Shown one piece after another: positions 1,100 through 47,981 of a DNA stretch of 64,000 nt. Every line of letters starts with the position of its first letter. Position 1 is the stretch's first letter. This DNA is from a virus (lineage: Duplodnaviria > Caudoviricetes), in IMG/VR virus record IMGVR_UViG_3300007214_000006. One strand, written 5' to 3'. The position numbers and the translations under genes are program-made. A model generated the notes under the pieces. That model was not told the origin of the DNA and searched no databases. It saw nothing but the letters and a program-made list of their open reading frames with translations.

Positions 1100-1156
1100 C
1101 AAGGTCAAAAAAATTCAAGGGTCGGCTATTGACAAGCCGATAGAGTAGGATAGAAT
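1100..1156 (+). promoter_or_regulatory. sigma70-like early promoter, copy 1
   Basis: TTGACA 1129-1134, 16-nt spacer, TAGAAT 1151-1156; shares CAAGG.CAAAAAA...GGCTA.TTGACAAGCCGATA with 4471-4512. Confidence 0.75.
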
Positions 1157-1233
1157 GAAAGAGTTGATGCGAGAGGTTCAATCGCTTGATTGACTTGCAC
1201 CAATAGGAATTGGAAATGATTTGGAGGTTGATT

Positions 1234-1515
1234 ATGGCTGAAGTTACTACGGTTGAGAAGCAGAAGCGTGTTCGTTGCAGCGATGAGCAGTTTCTTGAGG
1301 CTGTTTTTTCTAGCAAGACTTATGCTGAGATTGCTACTAAAACAGGACAGAAGATCGCTAGCACTATGGCTCGTTATGCCAGAGTGAAGGCGGCTCTTGC
1401 TAAGAAGGGTGAAACTCTGCCCGCTATGGAGCGTGCGAAGCCTGCCAAGACAATTGATAATGTTGAGGCTATGGCAGATGTTGTTCGTCGCCTCAAGGCT
1501 CACGCCAACGGCTGA
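1234..1515 (+). CDS. hypothetical protein, possible HTH DNA-binding
   Basis: GGAGG RBS before ATG 1234; TYAEIATKTGQKIASTMARYAR resembles a helix-turn-helix. Confidence 0.65.
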   Translation: MAEVTTVEKQKRVRCSDEQFLEAVFSSKTYAEIATKTGQKIASTMARYARVKAALAKKGETLPAMERAKPAKTIDNVEAMADVVRRLKAHANG

Positions 1516-1528
1516 TTTTTAAATTAAC

Positions 1529-1607
1529 GATAGTCGGCCACAGTGGTCTAAATGGTAGAGGCACACACTAATCAACCTCTAATCATGGATCGCTGTGGTC
1601 GATTATC
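1529..1607 (+). ncRNA. long RNA hairpin (20-bp outer stem plus inner stem)
   Basis: GATAGTCGGCCACAGTGGTC 1529-1548 pairs fully with GATCGCTGTGGTCGATTATC 1588-1607 (4 G-U); inner TAGAGG/CCTCTA stem. Confidence 0.6.
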
Positions 1608-1611
1608 TTAT

Positions 1612-1899
1612 GGGGAATTGGCGGAATAGGCAGACGCAACGGACTTTTTAATTGGAGTGCTTAAAGGGAAACTTTTAATGTAGAACCTGTCAAAGTCGGT
1701 GAAACCTGTAAAATGGCAATACCGAACCAAACCTAATTTATTAGGGAGGCGTAGAGACTTGACGGCAGGAGCCTAAAATATGAAAAATATTATGGCTAAG
1801 GTAAAGTCCAGACCACAAACTGTAAAGGTAACGAAAGTTATAGTGGTAAGAAAATCCGTTGGGAGTAATCCCGTGTGGGTTCAAGTCCCACATTCCCCA
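1612..1899 (+). tRNA. trnL: tRNA-Leu(UAA) interrupted by a group I intron
   Basis: Exon 1 1612-1646 GGGGAATTGGCGGAATAGGCAGACGCAACGGACTT; exon 2 1851-1899 AAAATCCGTTGGGAGTAATCCCGTGTGGGTTCAAGTCCCACATTCCCCA; spliced anticodon arm ACGGA-CTTAAAA-TCCGT, long variable arm, T-arm, acceptor GGGGAAT/ATTCCCC; CCA not encoded. Confidence 0.92.
1647..1850 (+). ncRNA. group I intron (trnL(UAA)-type, ORF-less, 204 nt)
   Basis: Inserted after U34; P1 exon ACUU pairs with intron GAGU giving the U-G splice-site pair; GAAA-capped P2; P/Q/R/S-like cores AAAGTCGGTGAAACC, AATACCGAACC, GTAGAGACTTGACGG, AAGGTAAAGTCCA; terminal G at 1850. Confidence 0.88.
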
Positions 1900-1925
1900 C
1901 TGTAGTATAATAGTAGAGAAATAAA

Positions 1926-1965
1926 TCCTTTTGGTGTATGTTACTTTGAACTACACCATTAGGAG
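1926..1965 (+). promoter_or_regulatory. hairpin sequestering the RBS of the HNH gene, containing GGTGTA
   Basis: TGGTGTA 1932-1938 pairs with TACACCA 1952-1958; TCCT 1926-1929 pairs with AGGA 1961-1964 of the SD. Confidence 0.65.
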
Positions 1966-1974
1966 TCTACTATA

Positions 1975-2445
1975 ATGAACATATGTCGTAAATGCGGATC
2001 AGAATTCAAAAACAGAGTAAAAATTAAGGGATCAATAAAGGTTTTAAATCGTCGTAAATATTGTTTAGATTGTTCTCCGTTTGGAAAAAGAAATACCAAA
2101 AGATTGCATTTACCACAAAGAAATAAAAATTCAAAAAAACAATGCACACAATGCGGTAAAGAATTTAAGTGGAATAAAAATAATGTATGCTGGACTTGCA
2201 GATCGTATAATAGAAGAAAACAAAACAGAAACAAAGCCATAACCCATCTTGGTGCAAAGTGTGGGGATTGTGGATTGGAAGATAAAGATGTTTTAACATT
2301 TCATCATATAAGCCAAGACAGTAAATATGATAATCTTTCTAGTTTGTGGCACAGAAAGTGGTCAGTAATAGAAAAAGAAATTAATAAATGCAAAATATTG
2401 TGTGCTAATTGTCATATGAAACTACACAGAAAGGAAAACAAATGA
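1975..2445 (+). CDS. free-standing HNH endonuclease with zinc-binding repeats
   Basis: Several CxxC pairs; C-terminal KCGDCG...LTFHH...EINKCKILCANCHMKLH HNH signature. Confidence 0.85.
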   Translation: MNICRKCGSEFKNRVKIKGSIKVLNRRKYCLDCSPFGKRNTKRLHLPQRNKNSKKQCTQCGKEFKWNKNNVCWTCRSYNRRKQNRNKAITHLGAKCGDCGLEDKDVLTFHHISQDSKYDNLSSLWHRKWSVIEKEINKCKILCANCHMKLHRKENK

Positions 2446-2660
2446 GCAAAAACGTAATCGAATTGAACAAGATCGGTAGCAAGGTTAAGTTAACGGATGA
2501 TGTTTATGGAACCATAGTTGGTATTAATATTTCTGGAGAAAATACTGTTACTTATAAATGCGGGTGGTGGAATGGTCGTTCGTATTCAACAGAGAGTTTT
2601 TCTCCTAGCGAAATAGAAGTTATGGTTGCTGAGAAGTTTAAGATAGGCTTCGGAACATGA
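2442..2660 (+). CDS. hypothetical protein
   Basis: AAGGA RBS and ATG 2442 overlapping the HNH stop; beta-rich (SH3-like pattern). Confidence 0.65.
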   Translation: MSKNVIELNKIGSKVKLTDDVYGTIVGINISGENTVTYKCGWWNGRSYSTESFSPSEIEVMVAEKFKIGFGT

Positions 2661-3013
2661 ACGAAATTACAGATCCTTTGGATTATCTCATTCAATGTTG
2701 TGAAAGTGCTATTAATACTGGTAAGTGGCGACTTACTAAATTCACTATTCTTAACGCTAAAAACGAACTTTCTAAGTTGAGACAAACCAAGAAAGATTTG
2801 GCTAAAGAACTATTTGACGCTAATCAATCTCTGGTAGAAGAAATTAATCGTGATTTAGCATTTAAAAATGTTGCTTGGGCAACTATAAATGGCAGGGGTG
2901 ATATGTTTAACATCAGTATGATATACAATCAATATGCTGATCCTAAGTCCACCATTCCTTTGTATCGAAACGAAAAGGAGTATAAAGAAAAATATGGTAA
3001 GTTATCCAAATAG
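2657..3013 (+). CDS. hypothetical protein
   Basis: ORF track 118 aa, ATGA overlap. Confidence 0.65.
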   Translation: MNEITDPLDYLIQCCESAINTGKWRLTKFTILNAKNELSKLRQTKKDLAKELFDANQSLVEEINRDLAFKNVAWATINGRGDMFNISMIYNQYADPKSTIPLYRNEKEYKEKYGKLSK

Positions 3014-3326
3014 ATTATTTAGAGGATGGTGTTCTAATGAAGGTAATTCACGATCTCATATTCTTCATTATCATATTTATACTATTAGAGACATTAGTGA
3101 CTATAATGGCGGAACGATTCCAGAAGAAGTAGATTCATTAGAAGAGTATTTCAATACAGATCTTTTGTCAGTAGACGATCCATACTACGCCGTTTATGCA
3201 ACATTTAAGATGGATATCCCAAGAGGGCCAATCAAAATTTTTGAAACTCCAGATTTAAAAGTAGCAGTTTATATTGTTGAACAACTAAGCGGCAATAAGG
3301 TTAAAGAAGATGAAATACACAATTGA
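2994..3326 (+). CDS. hypothetical protein
   Basis: AAGGAG upstream favours ATG 2994. Confidence 0.6.
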   Translation: MVSYPNRLFRGWCSNEGNSRSHILHYHIYTIRDISDYNGGTIPEEVDSLEEYFNTDLLSVDDPYYAVYATFKMDIPRGPIKIFETPDLKVAVYIVEQLSGNKVKEDEIHN

Positions 3327-3849: not shown

Positions 3850-3881
3850 TGGTGTATATCCTTAATATAAGGAGATACATT

Positions 3882-4241
3882 ATGTCAAGAGAATTTGATC
3901 AGATAATTAGAGAAATTAACAAACAAAATAAAGAACTTCATAGTATAGATAGCCAAATTTCCAAAGAGGTTATCAAGGATATTTCTGATGTTAAAAAGTC
4001 TGTAAAAACAATAGAAAACAAAATTGTATTGATGGAAAAGGTTCTGAACCAATTATTTGAACTGATCAATAATATAACCATATTTATAGACGATGCCGAA
4101 GATATAGTGGATGGTATAGATGATGAAGATGAAGAGGATTGGACTCCTTATGATGAGCGTAATTTCCAATATGAGGATGACAACGACGAAGAAGATATAG
4201 GTGGAGACAATTATTGGAGTAGCCATGAGGATGAAAGTTAA
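3882..4241 (+). CDS. coiled-coil protein with acidic C-terminal tail
   Basis: AAGGAG 3869-3874 before ATG 3882; heptad pattern then D/E-rich tail. Confidence 0.65.
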   Translation: MSREFDQIIREINKQNKELHSIDSQISKEVIKDISDVKKSVKTIENKIVLMEKVLNQLFELINNITIFIDDAEDIVDGIDDEDEEDWTPYDERNFQYEDDNDEEDIGGDNYWSSHEDES

Positions 4242-18699: not shown

Positions 18700-18733
18700 G
18701 TTAGGTGTAATCTTTTATATAGGATAATTATTT

Positions 18734-19039
18734 ATGGATATATTATCAATATTAATAGTATCATTGTTTATGTCTGTAAATATATTATTTTTTATACTTG
18801 GTTATTTTTTATGTTTTCTATTTAATAAAAATACCTTATCGATCAGCGGGATGAATAGTAAATCAGATAAAAGCAAAAAACAAACACTCAAAAATAGTAT
18901 AGATATAGATGATAAAAAAATTGTAACAAATATAAAAATAGATAATCTTGAGAAAAAATACGAAAACATAGCACAATCGACCACCTCAAATGAAAATATT
19001 TCATCATCAATAAATAAATTAAAGAGCATGAAAGGATAA
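18734..19039 (+). CDS. small single-pass membrane protein
   Basis: Hydrophobic N-terminal ~30 aa; charged tail ending INKLKSMKG; 4 nt before the actin-like gene. Confidence 0.7.
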   Translation: MDILSILIVSLFMSVNILFFILGYFLCFLFNKNTLSISGMNSKSDKSKKQTLKNSIDIDDKKIVTNIKIDNLEKKYENIAQSTTSNENISSSINKLKSMKG

Positions 19040-44668: not shown

Positions 44669-45726
44669 ATATAAATATTTCATGTCCTATTAATAATACG
44701 GGTTATGGATTAGCATCAATAAATATTCTCAAATCGTTATATGAAAAGGGTTCAAATATAACATATTTTCCCATAGGAAATCCGCATATTAATTCTGAGC
44801 AAGACAAAGAAATAATTGTTCAGATGTATAATAATAGATTAAAATGTGATATTTTATCTCCATATATTAAAATATGGCATCAGTTTGATTTATTGGATCA
44901 TGTGGGTAAAGGTAAATATTATGCTTTTCCTTTCTTTGAGTTAGACACATTTAACGATCAAGAAAAAATAAGTCTCAGTGTTCCCGATGTTATATTTGCT
45001 ACAAGCGAATGGGCTAAAAATATTATACAAAATAATATTTCTACTCCTACAGAGGTTATACCTCTTGGTGTTGACATATCTATTTTTGATAGTATAAAAA
45101 TACAAAAAACAAGAAAAAACGAAAAATATATTTTTCTAAATATTGGTAAATGGGAAATAAGAAAAGGTCATGACTTTATATATAAAATATTTAAAGATGC
45201 TTTTCCCAAAGAAAACGATGTGGAATTATGGGTCCTGGCTTCTGAAAAAACAAACAATTACTCTAGCGAAAATGAACTTAAAACATGGAAACAAATTTAT
45301 TCGAATGATCCAAGAATAAAATTATTTAATGGAATGAATAATCAATACGAAATTGCTGAATTAATAGCAAATTCAGACTGCGGACTTTATCCATCTAGAG
45401 CAGAAGGCTGGAATTTAGAGCTATTAGAAACAATGGCTATGAATAAACCTGTTATAGCAACAGATTATTCGGCACATACAGAATTTTGTAACAAAAATAA
45501 TTGCATGCTCATAGATATTGATGAGACAGAAAAAGCATTTGACAATAAAGCATTTGTAGGTCAGGGAAATTGGGCTAAAATAGGACCAAATCAAATAGAA
45601 CAAACTATAAATCATATGAGAAATGCTTATAATAATAGAATTGTTACTAATAATAATGGATTAATAACGGCCAATAAATACACATGGTCTAACACTGCTG
45701 ATCATATATTAAGGTGTATATCCTAA
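44665..45726 (+). CDS. glycosyltransferase family 4 (GT-B retaining)
   Basis: TGYG, IPLGVD, FLNIGKWEIRKG, PSRAEGWNLELLETMAMNKPVIAT. Confidence 0.88.
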   Translation: MNINISCPINNTGYGLASINILKSLYEKGSNITYFPIGNPHINSEQDKEIIVQMYNNRLKCDILSPYIKIWHQFDLLDHVGKGKYYAFPFFELDTFNDQEKISLSVPDVIFATSEWAKNIIQNNISTPTEVIPLGVDISIFDSIKIQKTRKNEKYIFLNIGKWEIRKGHDFIYKIFKDAFPKENDVELWVLASEKTNNYSSENELKTWKQIYSNDPRIKLFNGMNNQYEIAELIANSDCGLYPSRAEGWNLELLETMAMNKPVIATDYSAHTEFCNKNNCMLIDIDETEKAFDNKAFVGQGNWAKIGPNQIEQTINHMRNAYNNRIVTNNNGLITANKYTWSNTADHILRCIS

Positions 45727-45751
45727 TAACTCTAATATTATAGGAATAATT

Positions 45752-46423
45752 ATGCCAATACCAAAACCAGAAAAAAATGAAGATAGAAAAAAATTTATAT
45801 CAAGGTGTATGGGAAATGACACAATGGTTAAGGAATATCCTGATAATAAACAAAGAATTGCTATTTGTCTAGGACAGGCTTCTCTAGTGACGGCGGATAA
45901 CGATTCTGTTTTGGCTCGGGTATGTGAATCTATAGAACTGATCAGATTTATGGAAGAAGCAGATTTCGGTTTCGAAGAAGAACTAACGGCAGAAAATTTT
46001 TATGATCCAAAACAAGAAGACTATGAAGATTTAGGATACCCAGTAGAAGATATAGAAGAATTCGATATCATATTTTCTAAATTTGAATATAGAGATCCAC
46101 AAACCAATGAATTATATTACTATGACAGAAAAGGTATTTATACTAAAGATGGAAGACAACTAATTTACATAGGGAAAGCATCTGAATATCAGGGAAGGAA
46201 AGTTCAATTAAATAAACCATTCAGAACTCCAGGTGGTCCTAAAAAATTTAGCGTTTATGTCAAGAACGATAAAGGAAACGTGGTTAAAGTAAATTTTGGT
46301 GATCCAAATATGAAAATAAAGAAAAATATTCCAGAAAGACGCAAAAGCTTTAGAGCAAGACACAACTGTGATAATCCTGGTCCAAAATGGAAAGCAAGAT
46401 ATTGGTCTTGTAGAGCGTGGTAA
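45752..46423 (+). CDS. hypothetical protein (phage-type conserved motifs)
   Basis: MPIPKP...FISRCM...QRIAIC N-terminus; basic C-terminus KFSVYVKN...VNFGDPNM..RKSFRARHNC...RYWSC. Confidence 0.7.
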   Translation: MPIPKPEKNEDRKKFISRCMGNDTMVKEYPDNKQRIAICLGQASLVTADNDSVLARVCESIELIRFMEEADFGFEEELTAENFYDPKQEDYEDLGYPVEDIEEFDIIFSKFEYRDPQTNELYYYDRKGIYTKDGRQLIYIGKASEYQGRKVQLNKPFRTPGGPKKFSVYVKNDKGNVVKVNFGDPNMKIKKNIPERRKSFRARHNCDNPGPKWKARYWSCRAW

Positions 46424-47375: not shown

Positions 47376-47981
47376 ATGAATACTAAATTTGATTCTCTGT
47401 CTACATATATGTCTCTAGCAAAAAAAACCATATCAAAATTTGCACCAAAATTTTATAATGGACTTGCAAAAGAAATGCTGTCTAACGAAGAAGCTGTCTC
47501 CGATGTTGCTTCAGCAATAATGTACGCAGATTGGCGGTTTGATCCAGATAGACAAGGAAAAACTGGTCTTAAAAAGACGCTCTATTCTTATAGAAACCAA
47601 TGTGCTATATGGGCAATTAAAACATATGTTACAAATAAATATAAGAACAAAAATAAAAAATCTTTGAGTTTAGATAATAACTTAAATTCTGTAGAAGAAT
47701 ATATTAACGCATATGATCTATTAGCGTCCTCTTCTGAAAAAGATCCTTTAGAAAAACTTATAGAAAAAGAAGAAAATCAAGAGATTACTAATAATATTAA
47801 CGAATTATTAACCAAAGCAAATATTTCAGAAAAACAAAAACAGCAAATTATTATGTATTATTTTAATAACCTGACACTATCAAAGATAGGTAAGCATTTC
47901 GGTGTATCTCGTGAAGCCGTAAGACAGAGTATAAAAAGAGCTATAGAAACAATAAAAACTTATGATAAAGCCTATAGTTGA
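47376..47981 (+). CDS. phage sigma70-family RNA polymerase sigma factor
   Basis: Region 2-like RFDPDR...TLYSYRNQCAIWAIK; region 4 HTH TLSKIGKHFGVSREAVRQ. Confidence 0.8.
   Translation: MNTKFDSLSTYMSLAKKTISKFAPKFYNGLAKEMLSNEEAVSDVASAIMYADWRFDPDRQGKTGLKKTLYSYRNQCAIWAIKTYVTNKYKNKNKKSLSLDNNLNSVEEYINAYDLLASSSEKDPLEKLIEKEENQEITNNINELLTKANISEKQKQQIIMYYFNNLTLSKIGKHFGVSREAVRQSIKRAIETIKTYDKAYS

What the first reader, a model, noticed from the sequence alone, without database searches (positions are those of the whole stretch)
1926..2445. HNH gene with RBS-occluding hairpin and embedded late-promoter-like motif, beside an ORF-less intron
Seen: TGGTGTA/TACACCA (1932-1938/1952-1958) continues past a 2x2 loop into TCCT/AGGA, pairing the Shine-Dalgarno (AGGAG 1961-1965). 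The 5' arm holds GGTGTA, the motif found before many late-type genes. Established: T4 homing endonucleases such as I-TevI are silenced on early read-through transcripts by an RBS-sequestering hairpin and translated from late transcripts starting within it; cyanophage S-PM2 pairs an ORF-less intron with a free-standing nuclease (collaborative homing). Inference: the same logic operates here, with the HNH cutting intron-less trnL alleles.
Basis: partly seen in the sequence, partly recalled or inferred. Interest (0 to 1): 0.72.

Follow-up and report, generated by a model that had tools for sequence, protein, structure and literature searches.

The report
Hairpin-gated homing nuclease beside phage tRNA-Leu
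An uncultured freshwater phage carries a mobile HNH nuclease gene next to its tRNA-Leu gene, apparently kept silent by an RNA hairpin that hides its ribosome-binding site, as in phage T4; the neighbouring intron seems to be an unrelated passenger.

Summary
The stated coordinates are exact. The hairpin (1926-1964, -17 kcal/mol, z -3 to -4.8) pairs AGGA of the Shine-Dalgarno. The 156-aa ORF has the HNH signature. tRNA-Leu(UAA) carries a 204-nt ORF-less group I intron.

Six orthologous HNH leaders (proteins 59-72% identical) all fold into Shine-Dalgarno-occluding hairpins (-16 to -22 kcal/mol). The outer stem shows compensatory changes, while TGGTGTAT in the 5' arm is invariant.

GGTGTA(T/A) is a strand-specific motif 20-61 nt upstream of genes:
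- window: 7 seen, 0.57 expected
- complete 223-kb relative: 19 seen, 2.3 expected; the top upstream k-mer there, ahead of a sigma70 -35-like box

Opening the Shine-Dalgarno is predicted to cost 9-12 kcal/mol on read-through RNA. It costs 1-4 kcal/mol on RNA starting just after the motif. A second HNH family sits in the same slot in reverse orientation; it keeps the motif but has no hairpin.

So the T4-like gating logic (I-TevI, SegB, Aeh1 MobE) is well supported by comparison. No transcription start site or timing data exist.

Collaborative homing with the intron is not supported. Intron and HNH assort independently (odds ratio 0.94, p=1). Four relatives carry an intact HNH beside an intact intron-less trnL.

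Verdict: a new member of a known kind. The same scan noted the motif elsewhere in this genome.

The parts
1129..1156 (+). Sigma70-type early promoter (TTGACA, 16-nt spacer, TAGAAT). It would drive the GC-rich ORF, the 79-nt RNA and tRNA-Leu, and read through into the HNH gene.
   Evidence: 11 of 12 consensus matches. The same promoter is present in L001. No + strand terminator-like site lies between it and 1975 apart from a weak one inside the ORF. Function is inferred.
1234..1515 (+). GC-rich 93-aa ORF, the conserved left flank of the variable module.
   Evidence: 83-89% aa identity in the 80 IMG/VR loci kept out of 176 relatives. Only weak HTH / transcription-regulator hits.
1529..1607 (+). 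79-nt long hairpin RNA element 4 nt upstream of the tRNA.
   Evidence: -42.6 kcal/mol, z -8.3. The L001 counterpart folds alike with a different stem sequence.
1612..1646 (+). tRNA-Leu(UAA) 5' exon.
   Evidence: ARAGORN with the intron option.
1647..1850 (+). ORF-less group I intron, 204 nt, inserted after U34.
   Evidence: ARAGORN -i. Rfam RF00028, 50.0 bits, E 1.1e-11. Present in 31 and absent from 39 of 70 related loci.
1851..1900 (+). tRNA-Leu(UAA) 3' exon (class II, long variable arm).
   Evidence: 100% identical to the intron-less L105 allele.
1901..1974 (+). HNH leader. It is part of the cassette and is absent from HNH-less loci.
   Evidence: Alignment of six HNH+ leaders. HNH-less loci have an unrelated spacer of about 20-35 nt.
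1926..1964 (+). Shine-Dalgarno-occluding hairpin. The 5' arm is 1926-1929 plus 1932-1938. An inner helix pairs 1940-1942 with 1949-1951. The 3' arm is 1952-1958 plus 1961-1964.
   Evidence: -17 kcal/mol, z -3 to -4. Orthologous hairpins -16 to -22 kcal/mol, z -4.1 to -6.1. Compensatory pairs in the outer stem.
1933..1939 (+). GGTGTAT promoter-like motif at the top of the 5' arm.
   Evidence: TGGTGTAT is invariant in six orthologous leaders while the 3' arm varies. Upstream enrichment in the window and in G001. It also precedes reverse-oriented HNH cassettes.
1961..1965 (+). Shine-Dalgarno AGGAG, 9 nt before the ATG.
   Evidence: Sequence. Predicted cost to open positions -15..-6 is 11.3 kcal/mol on read-through RNA and 1.9-2.9 on RNA starting 7-10 nt after the motif.
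1975..2445 (+). Free-standing HNH endonuclease gene (156 aa): N-terminal Cys-rich (zinc-ribbon-like) domains plus a C-terminal HNH domain.
   Evidence: phrog_2255, E 1.2e-31. Invariant catalytic and Zn residues. AlphaFold model pLDDT 89. Residues 75-156 best match HNH nucleases, but weakly, Z 3.8-4.7. No Pfam hit. Optional in relatives.
2442..2660 (+). Conserved downstream gene (72 aa), the right flank. Its ATG overlaps the HNH stop (ATGA), and the last HNH codons supply its Shine-Dalgarno.
   Evidence: Sequence. 57-81% aa identity in 29 loci. In HNH-less loci the same AAGGAAA..ATG context follows the tRNA directly.

Best explanation
Bases 1901-2445 are a free-standing HNH homing-endonuclease cassette: a 74-nt leader plus a 471-nt ORF. 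It is lodged between the phage's tRNA-Leu(UAA) gene and a conserved 72-aa gene. This slot is a homing-endonuclease hotspot in a family of uncultured freshwater phages of about 200-220 kb.

Expression appears to be gated as in the T4 endonucleases I-TevI/II/III, SegB and Aeh1 MobE. Transcripts from the strong sigma70-type promoter at 1129-1156 run through the tRNA operon into the cassette. They carry a leader hairpin that base-pairs the Shine-Dalgarno, so the nuclease is not translated. This holds even after the tRNA is cut out, because the hairpin lies 3' of the tRNA.

The top of the hairpin's 5' arm is GGTGTAT, the core of a phage-specific promoter class. That class is probably read with phage-encoded sigma-like factors. 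RNA initiated a few nucleotides downstream of the motif lacks the 5' arm and has a free ribosome-binding site.

The group I intron in the adjacent tRNA is an independent, optional element and is not the nuclease's partner. The nuclease most likely cuts HNH-less alleles somewhere in the trnL-to-downstream-gene region (intron-less homing), dragging the adjacent long-arm tRNA allele with it.

Shown: the hairpin and its conservation, the motif's distribution, the optional presence of the cassette, and the independence from the intron. Inferred: promoter activity, TSS position, timing, nuclease activity and target.
For: 1. Hairpin conservation. The hairpin is exactly as described and beyond chance. 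Leaders of six orthologues (HNH 59-72% identical) each fold to a Shine-Dalgarno-occluding hairpin: -15.9 to -21.6 kcal/mol, z -4.0 to -6.1, 0 of 200 shuffles as good.

2. Compensatory changes. When pairs are anchored on the invariant motif, positions -2 to -10 show both-sided compensatory changes, for example C-G, U-G, U-A and A-U at one position. The paired partner always covers -5 to -14 from the AUG.

3. A constraint beyond pairing. TGGTGTAT is invariant while its partner strand varies (ACACCA, ACAC-A, ACAUCA, or a shifted register in L100). So the 5' arm is under a constraint other than base pairing.

4. The motif is a gene-upstream element.
- Window: 7 sense, 0 antisense, 0.57 expected.
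- Complete relative G001: 19 sense, 2 antisense, 2.25 expected.
- Distance to the ATG is 20-61 nt.
- GGTGTAT is the top upstream-enriched 7-mer in G001 (17 of 32 copies, p 2e-14). The only comparable signal is GCTTGACA, a sigma70 -35-like box.
- The two classes lie in different genome regions.

5. Reverse-oriented cassettes. HNH cassettes of a second family (phrog_10822) sit in the same slot in reverse orientation. They carry GGTGTAT 42-51 nt before their own ATG, in a divergent spacer only about 27 nt from the neighbour's ATG. The motif must therefore lie at their promoter. These cassettes are not exposed to sense read-through. They have unstructured leaders (z -0.7 to +0.3) and no long-versus-short difference in Shine-Dalgarno opening energy.

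6. Predicted gating. The cost of opening the Shine-Dalgarno is 9.1-12.2 kcal/mol on read-through RNA. It is 1.2-3.9 kcal/mol on RNA starting 7-10 nt after the motif. This holds in all six orthologues.

7. Transcriptional context. The upstream promoter matches consensus 11 of 12 and there is no terminator before the HNH gene. The window encodes a sigma70 region-4 protein (PF04545, 45 bits). G001 encodes a sub-threshold region-2 protein.

8. Wider use of the design. Motif-bearing leaders in general are more structured than other leaders (mean z -1.31 against -0.06, p 1.7e-4). The HNH leaders are the extreme cases.

9. Cassette mobility. HNH presence or absence changes at least 4 times on the tree of the conserved flank. 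Five of 20 motif-preceded genes in G001 are HNH- or EndoVII-like.

10. Precedent. T4 I-TevI/II/III, SegB and Aeh1 MobE use the same design (PMC2988022; PMC2330249).
Against: - No transcript 5' ends or expression timing are available; no RNA run was listed.
- GGTGTAT has not been shown to be a promoter, and 'late' is a guess. Most downstream genes have no recognisable function.
- In the window itself the stem is the weakest of the six orthologues. It has a 2x2 internal loop, and only AGGA of AGGAG is paired.
- About a third of motif-bearing leaders are not structured, so the hairpin is not an obligatory part of the promoter class.
- Nuclease activity is unproven. There is no Pfam HNH hit and structural similarity to HNH domains is weak (Z below 5).
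- The cleavage target is unknown.
- The host is unknown, so the sigma70-type promoter call rests on consensus only.
Confidence: 0.6

Rival explanations
1. Collaborative homing. The HNH cuts intron-less trnL alleles at the intron insertion site, the ORF-less intron protects its own genome, and the two spread as a pair, as with F-CphI and the psbA intron of cyanophage S-PM2.
For: In the window, and in L094/L102, an ORF-less group I intron and a free-standing HNH are adjacent: 76 nt lie between the tRNA end and the HNH start. The S-PM2 precedent is real (PMC6083498).
Against: - Intron against HNH over 70 distinct loci gives [[3,28],[4,35]], odds ratio 0.94, Fisher p=1.0. Intron against any insert in the slot gives p=0.6.
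- In 14 phylogenetically independent pairs differing in intron state, HNH changes the same way in 0.5 and the opposite way in 2.1.
- L001, L023, L100 and L105 have a full-length HNH with all catalytic residues next to an uninterrupted trnL.
- L105's trnL is identical to the window's ligated exons from 11 nt 5' of the junction to the 3' end.
- L094 (intron present) and L105 (intron absent) have near-identical HNH leaders.
- 18 intron-bearing loci have no insert longer than 150 nt in the slot.
Confidence: 0.06
2. The hairpin is a constitutive translational brake or an RNA-processing or stability element, for example an RNase III or RNase E site 3' of the tRNA. Cleavage, rather than an internal promoter, frees the ribosome-binding site, or translation simply stays low at all times. 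GGTGTAT acts in the RNA, or is a promoter whose position in the stem is incidental.
For: - Stems of 17-20 bp in L001, L094, L100 and L023 are long enough for RNase III.
- T4 segB also has an occluding hairpin, and its authors mapped no nearby promoter and proposed persistent restraint plus RNase E processing (PMC2330249).
- The element lies just after a tRNA that must be 3'-processed.
- No TSS data exist.
Against: - An RNA-only role does not explain why TGGTGTAT is invariant while its pairing partner drifts.
- It does not explain why the same motif sits at a fixed distance upstream of 26 genes on the coding strand only.
- It does not explain why the motif heads reverse-oriented HNH cassettes in a 27-nt divergent spacer where no upstream transcript is expected.
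- Those reverse cassettes lack the hairpin. This fits silencing of read-through RNA better than a general brake.
Confidence: 0.22
3. The inverted repeat TGGTGTA-N13-TACACCA acts as a DNA operator. A dimeric protein, possibly the HNH itself as in I-TevI autorepression at its late promoter, binds it and represses transcription.
For: I-TevI binds an operator overlapping its own late promoter (PMC2988022). The repeat overlaps the promoter-like motif.
Against: - Arm spacing varies from 12 to 19 nt among orthologues, and the register shifts in L100.
- Several arm changes preserve pairing only as G-U, which is RNA-level and not DNA-level complementarity.
- The conserved pairing extends over the Shine-Dalgarno and beyond it.
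Confidence: 0.05

Closest known systems
T4 SegB, a free-standing GIY-YIG homing endonuclease in the T4 tRNA gene cluster (PMC2330249; PMC2988022)
   Same: Both are free-standing endonuclease genes embedded in a phage tRNA transcription unit and optional among relatives. In both, a stable hairpin (-20.2 kcal/mol in T4) occludes the Shine-Dalgarno on the tRNA-operon transcript. SegB drives preferential inheritance of the neighbouring tRNA region.
   Different: SegB is GIY-YIG, not HNH. The SegB authors mapped no promoter near the hairpin, although a later review marks a predicted late one. Here a recurrent promoter-like motif sits in the 5' arm. SegB's target (tRNA T-psi-C sequences) is known; this one's is not.
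T4 I-TevI, I-TevII, I-TevIII and Aeromonas phage Aeh1 MobE: a hairpin hiding the ribosome-binding site with a middle or late promoter at the hairpin (PMC2988022)
   Same: The regulatory design is the same. Early or middle read-through RNA folds over the ribosome-binding site. A promoter just upstream of or within the hairpin gives RNA that lacks the 5' arm and is translated late.
   Different: The I-Tev enzymes are intron-encoded. The T4 late promoter is TATAAATA, read by gp55. Here the motif is GGTGTA(T/A), TATAAATA is not enriched upstream of genes, and the sigma-like proteins differ. The gating has been demonstrated in T4 and is only inferred here.
F-CphI and the psbA intron of cyanophage S-PM2: collaborative homing (Zeng et al. 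2009, cited in PMC6083498)
   Same: In both, an ORF-less group I intron lies next to a free-standing His-Me-type endonuclease gene in a phage.
   Different: The defining dependence is absent here. The HNH coexists with intact intron-less alleles in four relatives, and the two elements assort independently.
T4 MobE and trans homing of the nrdB intron (PMC2790892)
   Same: A free-standing HNH near an intron could mobilise the intron passively by co-conversion.
   Different: There is no evidence here of linked inheritance. On the flank tree the intron state changes at least 22 times and the HNH state at least 4 times, without correlation.

Membership tests
HNH (His-Me finger) endonuclease | beta-beta-alpha-metal motif with a catalytic His (HH), Asn and a metal-binding His, often framed by two CxxC zinc ligand pairs | tested here: met
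   C96, C99, H110, H111, C143, C146 and H147 are invariant, and N145 and H151 nearly so, in 21 homologues. phrog_2255 'HNH endonuclease', E 1.2e-31, plus six more HNH PHROGs.
HNH (His-Me finger) endonuclease | Match to curated HNH profiles, or clear structural similarity to solved HNH domains | tested here: inconclusive
   No Pfam or NCBIfam hit and no PDB sequence hit. The model has pLDDT 89. Residues 75-156 best match Cap5, the GVE2 HNH, Cas9/IscB HNH domains and T4 EndoVII, but only at Z 3.8-4.7 and Foldseek E above 0.1.
Free-standing homing endonuclease gene (intron-less homing) | Optional gene inserted between genes that are conserved and adjacent in close relatives | tested here: met
   Present in 7 and absent from 63 distinct related loci that share both flanks. 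The junctions are precise. At least 4 state changes on the flank tree.
Free-standing homing endonuclease gene (intron-less homing) | Site-specific cleavage of the endonuclease-less allele near the insertion site, with co-conversion of flanking markers | not testable with these tools
   Only a hint. All 7 HNH+ loci carry the long-arm tRNA allele against 12 of 63 HNH- loci (Fisher p 4e-5, not phylogenetically corrected). In 4 independent pairs, 3.6 go the same way (sign test p 0.125).
T4-type hairpin-gated late translation (I-TevI, SegB, MobE, e, soc) | A stable RNA structure that base-pairs the Shine-Dalgarno on long transcripts | tested here: met
   Conserved in six orthologues with compensatory changes. 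Opening cost is 9-12 kcal/mol.
T4-type hairpin-gated late translation (I-TevI, SegB, MobE, e, soc) | An upstream early or middle promoter that produces read-through transcripts containing the whole hairpin | tested here: inconclusive
   A consensus sigma70-type promoter at 1129-1156 and no terminator-like site before 1975. No RNA data exist.
T4-type hairpin-gated late translation (I-TevI, SegB, MobE, e, soc) | A promoter at or in the 5' arm, so that its transcripts lack the inhibitory arm | tested here: inconclusive
   GGTGTAT in the 5' arm is a strongly enriched, strand-specific upstream motif. It also heads reverse-oriented cassettes. Promoter activity and the TSS were not measured.
T4-type hairpin-gated late translation (I-TevI, SegB, MobE, e, soc) | Late timing of the internal promoter | not testable with these tools
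   No RNA runs were listed. Most downstream genes have no recognisable function.
Collaborative homing (F-CphI / psbA intron type) | The endonuclease targets the intron insertion site of intron-less alleles, and the intron protects the carrier genome | tested here: not met
   This was tested by comparison only. Four relatives have an intact HNH beside an intact intron-less trnL. L105's junction region is identical to the window's ligated exons. No biochemistry was done.
Collaborative homing (F-CphI / psbA intron type) | Intron and endonuclease are inherited together | tested here: not met
   Odds ratio 0.94, p=1.0. No co-variation in independent pairs.

The most novel reading that the evidence does not exclude
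The GGTGTAT-in-hairpin leader may be a portable, self-contained expression module that homing-endonuclease cassettes of this phage lineage carry with them. The occluding stem would be added or kept only when the cassette lands in the sense orientation inside an early operon. In addition, this HNH may target the tRNA gene itself. That would drive replacement of a short-arm (class I-like, 74-77 nt) trnL(UAA) allele by the canonical long-arm allele through co-conversion. On this reading a selfish nuclease decides which of two structurally different tRNA-Leu genes a phage population carries.
Probability: 0.2. Interest if true: 0.6.

Novelty: new member of a known kind. Interest (0 to 1): 0.4.

Why it matters
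The finding extends the T4 way of taming homing endonucleases to an unrelated, uncultured freshwater phage lineage. That strategy is to silence the gene on read-through RNA with a hairpin over the ribosome-binding site, then express it from a promoter buried in that hairpin. This lineage uses a different promoter word (GGTGTAT) and its own sigma-like proteins.

The relatives provide a natural control. Forward cassettes have the hairpin and reverse cassettes do not. This argues that the hairpin exists to deal with read-through transcription.

The work also corrects an attractive but unsupported link to the neighbouring intron. It flags the trnL slot as a hotspot holding two HNH families, an optional intron and two tRNA architectures. 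That makes it a compact system for studying how selfish elements reshuffle phage RNA genes.

Tried and rejected
- RNA evidence: no RNA holder was listed for 1100-3100 or 1200-2660. TSS mapping from public reads was therefore not possible and read laying was not used.
- Default ARAGORN and the whole-window Rfam gathering scan found neither the tRNA nor the intron. A local E-value scan and ARAGORN -i did.
- No cultured phage is close. rIIA is at most 37% identical to any phage record, and the DNA matches only the intron and tRNA region of two huge phages.
- No whole genome is held for the window. The complete relative G001 was used instead.
- RNAalifold on a MAFFT alignment of the leaders gave a weak consensus (-5.3 kcal/mol) because the alignment is not structure-aware. 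I replaced it with a motif-anchored pair table.
- A T4-like late promoter was considered. TATAAATA is not among the upstream-enriched words. The AATAAAT stretch in the leader is part of the extended stem in relatives and is not conserved in L100 or L023.
- GGTGTA as a -35 box or an extended -10 was considered and rejected. No consistent partner hexamer exists, and only TA(A/T) follows GGTG.
- Terminator role: no U-tract follows the hairpin.
- Searches for capsid families PF05065 and PF07068 in G001, meant to label late operons, found nothing. The PF07068 control rang nowhere.
- A literature search for GGTGTA as a phage promoter gave nothing relevant.
Full report
WHAT IS THERE

The window is an AT-rich (about 30% GC) phage-like sequence with rIIA and rIIB genes and no close cultured relative. 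The layout around the finding, read from the sequence, is as follows.
- A near-consensus sigma70-type promoter at 1129-1156 (TTGACA, 16-nt spacer, TAGAAT; 11 of 12 matches).
- A GC-rich 93-aa ORF at 1234-1515.
- A 79-nt, very stable hairpin RNA at 1529-1607 (-42.6 kcal/mol, z -8.3).
- tRNA-Leu(UAA), 1612-1646 plus 1851-1900, split after U34 by a 204-nt group I intron. ARAGORN with its intron option finds it, and Rfam Intron_gpI scores 50.0 bits, E 1e-11.
- A 74-nt leader, then a 156-aa ORF at 1975-2445.
- A conserved 72-aa gene whose ATG overlaps the ORF's stop codon (ATGA).

The minimum-free-energy fold is the described hairpin: 1926-1929 pairs with 1961-1964, 1932-1938 pairs with 1952-1958, and there is a small inner helix. 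It is -17 kcal/mol with z between -3.0 and -4.8, depending on the flank and the shuffle used.

The ORF belongs to PHROG HNH families (phrog_2255, E 1e-31). It keeps an invariant CxxC..HH..N..CxxCH..H signature across 21 homologues. It has no Pfam or PDB sequence match. A confident model (pLDDT 89) resembles solved HNH domains only weakly, at Z 3.8-4.7. I therefore call it an HNH on motif and profile grounds.

GGTGTA is not enriched in the window overall (16 copies, 16.6 expected). However, seven copies lie on the coding strand 30-55 nt upstream of start codons, against 0.57 expected and none antisense.

RELATIVES

Searches with the two flanking proteins retrieved more than 100 IMG/VR loci from uncultured phages. 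DNA holders of the stretch are mostly freshwater metagenomes. One relative is a complete 223,437-bp genome, G001.

After removing duplicates, 70 loci with a detected tRNA could be classified with ARAGORN -i and tblastn. All four states exist:
- intron present, HNH present: 3 loci (the window, and L094/L102);
- intron absent, HNH present: 4 loci (L001, L023, L100, L105);
- intron present, HNH absent: 28 loci;
- intron absent, HNH absent: 35 loci.

The slot between the tRNA and the 72-aa gene is a hotspot. A second HNH family (phrog_10822) occupies it in reverse orientation in eight loci and forward in one. Several unrelated ORFs occur there too.

THE HAIRPIN IS A CONSERVED, SELECTED RNA STRUCTURE

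The six distinct HNH+ loci have HNH proteins only 59-72% identical to the window's. Even so, each leader folds into a hairpin of -15.9 to -21.6 kcal/mol (z -4.0 to -6.1, none of 200 shuffles as good) that buries the Shine-Dalgarno. In the relatives the stem is longer (17-20 bp) and continuous.

Anchoring the pairs on the invariant motif shows both-sided compensatory changes at positions -2 to -10 of the outer stem. It also shows G-C to G-U changes in the inner stem, which points to RNA-level rather than DNA-level selection.

The 5'-arm word TGGTGTAT is invariant while its partner strand drifts and even changes register in L100. The word is therefore constrained by something other than pairing.

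THE MOTIF BEHAVES LIKE A PROMOTER CORE

- In G001, GGTGTAT is the most upstream-enriched 7-mer (17 of 32 copies, p 2e-14). The only comparable signal is GCTTGACA, a sigma70 -35-like box. TATAAATA is not enriched.
- Nineteen sense copies and two antisense copies lie 20-61 nt before start codons, against 2.25 expected.
- The two classes occupy different genome regions. The sigma70-like sites cluster before small ORFs at 118-183 kb.
- Five of the 20 motif-preceded genes in G001 are HNH- or EndoVII-like.
- The reverse-oriented phrog_10822 cassettes in the tRNA slot carry GGTGTAT 42-51 nt before their own ATG. The motif sits in a divergent spacer only about 27 nt from the neighbour's start codon, which leaves nowhere else for their promoter.
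- The window encodes a sigma70 region-4 protein at 47376-47981 (PF04545, 45 bits). G001 encodes a sub-threshold region-2 protein. These are plausible readers of the motif.
- None of this measures transcription.

THE GATING LOGIC

Predicted cost to open positions -15 to -6 before the AUG:

| Locus | Read-through RNA | RNA starting 7-10 nt after the motif |
|---|---|---|
| Window | 11.3 kcal/mol | 1.9-2.9 kcal/mol |
| All six orthologues (range) | 9.1-12.2 kcal/mol | 1.2-3.9 kcal/mol |

Because the hairpin lies 3' of the tRNA, removal of the tRNA from the precursor would leave it intact.

The reverse-oriented cassettes cannot receive sense read-through from the early promoter. They keep the motif but have unstructured leaders (z -0.7 to +0.3) and no long-versus-short difference. 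This natural contrast is what the T4 model predicts.

More widely, motif-bearing leaders are more structured than other leaders (mean z -1.31 against -0.06, p 1.7e-4). Several (window 3882, 18734, 45752; G001 8076) place an anti-Shine-Dalgarno stretch right after the motif. The HNH leaders are the extreme cases.

The design matches what is established for T4 I-TevI/II/III, SegB and Aeh1 MobE (PMC2988022; PMC2330249).

THE INTRON IS NOT THE NUCLEASE'S PARTNER

- The contingency table gives odds ratio 0.94, p=1.0. Counting any insert in the slot gives p=0.6.
- On a tree of the conserved left flank, the intron state changes at least 22 times and the HNH state at least 4 times. In 14 independent pairs differing in intron state, the HNH does not follow.
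- Four relatives carry a full-length HNH, with all catalytic residues, beside an uninterrupted trnL.
- In L105 the tRNA is identical to the window's ligated exons from 11 nt before the junction to the 3' end.

The defining feature of collaborative homing is that the intron shields the carrier from its own nuclease (PMC6083498). That feature is therefore not met. DNA modification as an alternative shield cannot be excluded.

WHAT THE NUCLEASE PROBABLY DOES

The cassette is optional and precisely bounded.
- The first dozen bases after the tRNA resemble the empty-site spacer.
- The last HNH codons recreate the downstream gene's Shine-Dalgarno.

That is the signature of intron-less homing. All seven HNH+ loci carry the canonical long-arm tRNA-Leu, against 12 of 63 HNH- loci (p 4e-5, uncorrected). 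In four independent pairs the two traits move together (underpowered). This hints at co-conversion of the tRNA with the cassette, as SegB does for the T4 tRNA region. The target site is unknown.

VERDICT

The regulatory interpretation is supported by comparison but lacks RNA data (confidence about 0.6). The collaborative-homing interpretation is not supported (about 0.06). This is a new member of a known kind: a T4-style hairpin-gated free-standing homing endonuclease in a new phage lineage with a new promoter word. Other first-stage notes on the same genome had independently listed the GGTGTA motif and the sigma-like proteins. I tested the motif statistics and the sigma domain call here.

Noticed in passing
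window 1612-1900; loci L025-L131: Two structurally different tRNA(UAA) alleles occupy the same slot in closely related phages. One is a canonical class II tRNA-Leu with a long variable arm (83-87 nt). The other is a 74-77-nt form with a 4-5-nt variable loop. The intron occurs in both (10 long, 21 short). Loci with identical left flanks (L057 and L063) differ in tRNA type, intron and HNH, so recombination breakpoints sit right at the tRNA.
   Followed up: partly
window 1529-1607; L001 3766-3840: A 79-nt, near-perfect 21-bp-plus hairpin ends 4 nt before the tRNA 5' end (-42.6 kcal/mol, z -8.3). In L001 the stem sequence differs but still pairs, and the A/C-rich loop (..CACA.CA.UA.UCAACCUC..) is conserved. 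There is no Rfam match. It could be an RNase III processing site or a small RNA.
   Followed up: partly
L024, L062, L063, L065, L071, L091, L095, L119 (reverse) and L085 (forward), between the tRNA and the 72-aa gene: A second HNH family (phrog_10822, E 1e-39 to 1e-42) uses the same slot, mostly in reverse orientation. Each copy has GGTGTAT upstream. The 'empty-site' spacer of many HNH-less loci contains the palindrome GATAATTATC, which is also the 3' coding end of this reverse HNH. Empty sites may therefore be deletion scars.
   Followed up: partly
window 47376-47981; G001 L137:14595-15257 (-): Phage-encoded sigma-like proteins. The window's 201-aa ORF has a sigma70 region-4 domain (PF04545, 45 bits). 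G001 has a 221-aa ORF with a sub-threshold region-2 match and a Cys-rich insert. They are candidate readers of GGTGTAT promoters.
   Followed up: partly
window 1234-1515: This 93-aa ORF is GC-rich (the surrounding kilobase is 41.5% GC in a roughly 30% GC genome). It is 83-89% identical in the 80 viral loci kept out of 176 relatives and is driven by a near-consensus sigma70 promoter. It gives only weak HTH / transcription-regulator hits. It looks like an unusually conserved early gene.
   Followed up: no
window 1619-1857: The intron-containing tRNA region is 78-80% identical in DNA to stretches of two records of a 735-kb uncultured phage (LR756501, LR756503) and of Agrobacterium jumbo phage Atu_ph07. 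Similar trnL introns therefore circulate among very large phages.
   Followed up: no
G001 151548-152336 (+), 172521-173159 (-), 142655-143263 (-), 134476-135030 (-): Four further HNH- or EndoVII-like genes in the complete relative are each preceded by GGTGTAT 28-44 nt upstream. Three of them lie antisense inside the early region.
   Followed up: partly
window 3851-3884, 18704-18736, 45713-45754: Other GGTGTA-headed leaders place an anti-Shine-Dalgarno stretch (CCTTA, ATCTT, TCCTA) within 1-4 nt after the motif. Pairing of the Shine-Dalgarno region is predicted to drop from 0.69-0.84 to 0.22-0.38 if transcription starts after the motif. The promoter-in-hairpin design may therefore be used beyond endonuclease genes.
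   Followed up: partly
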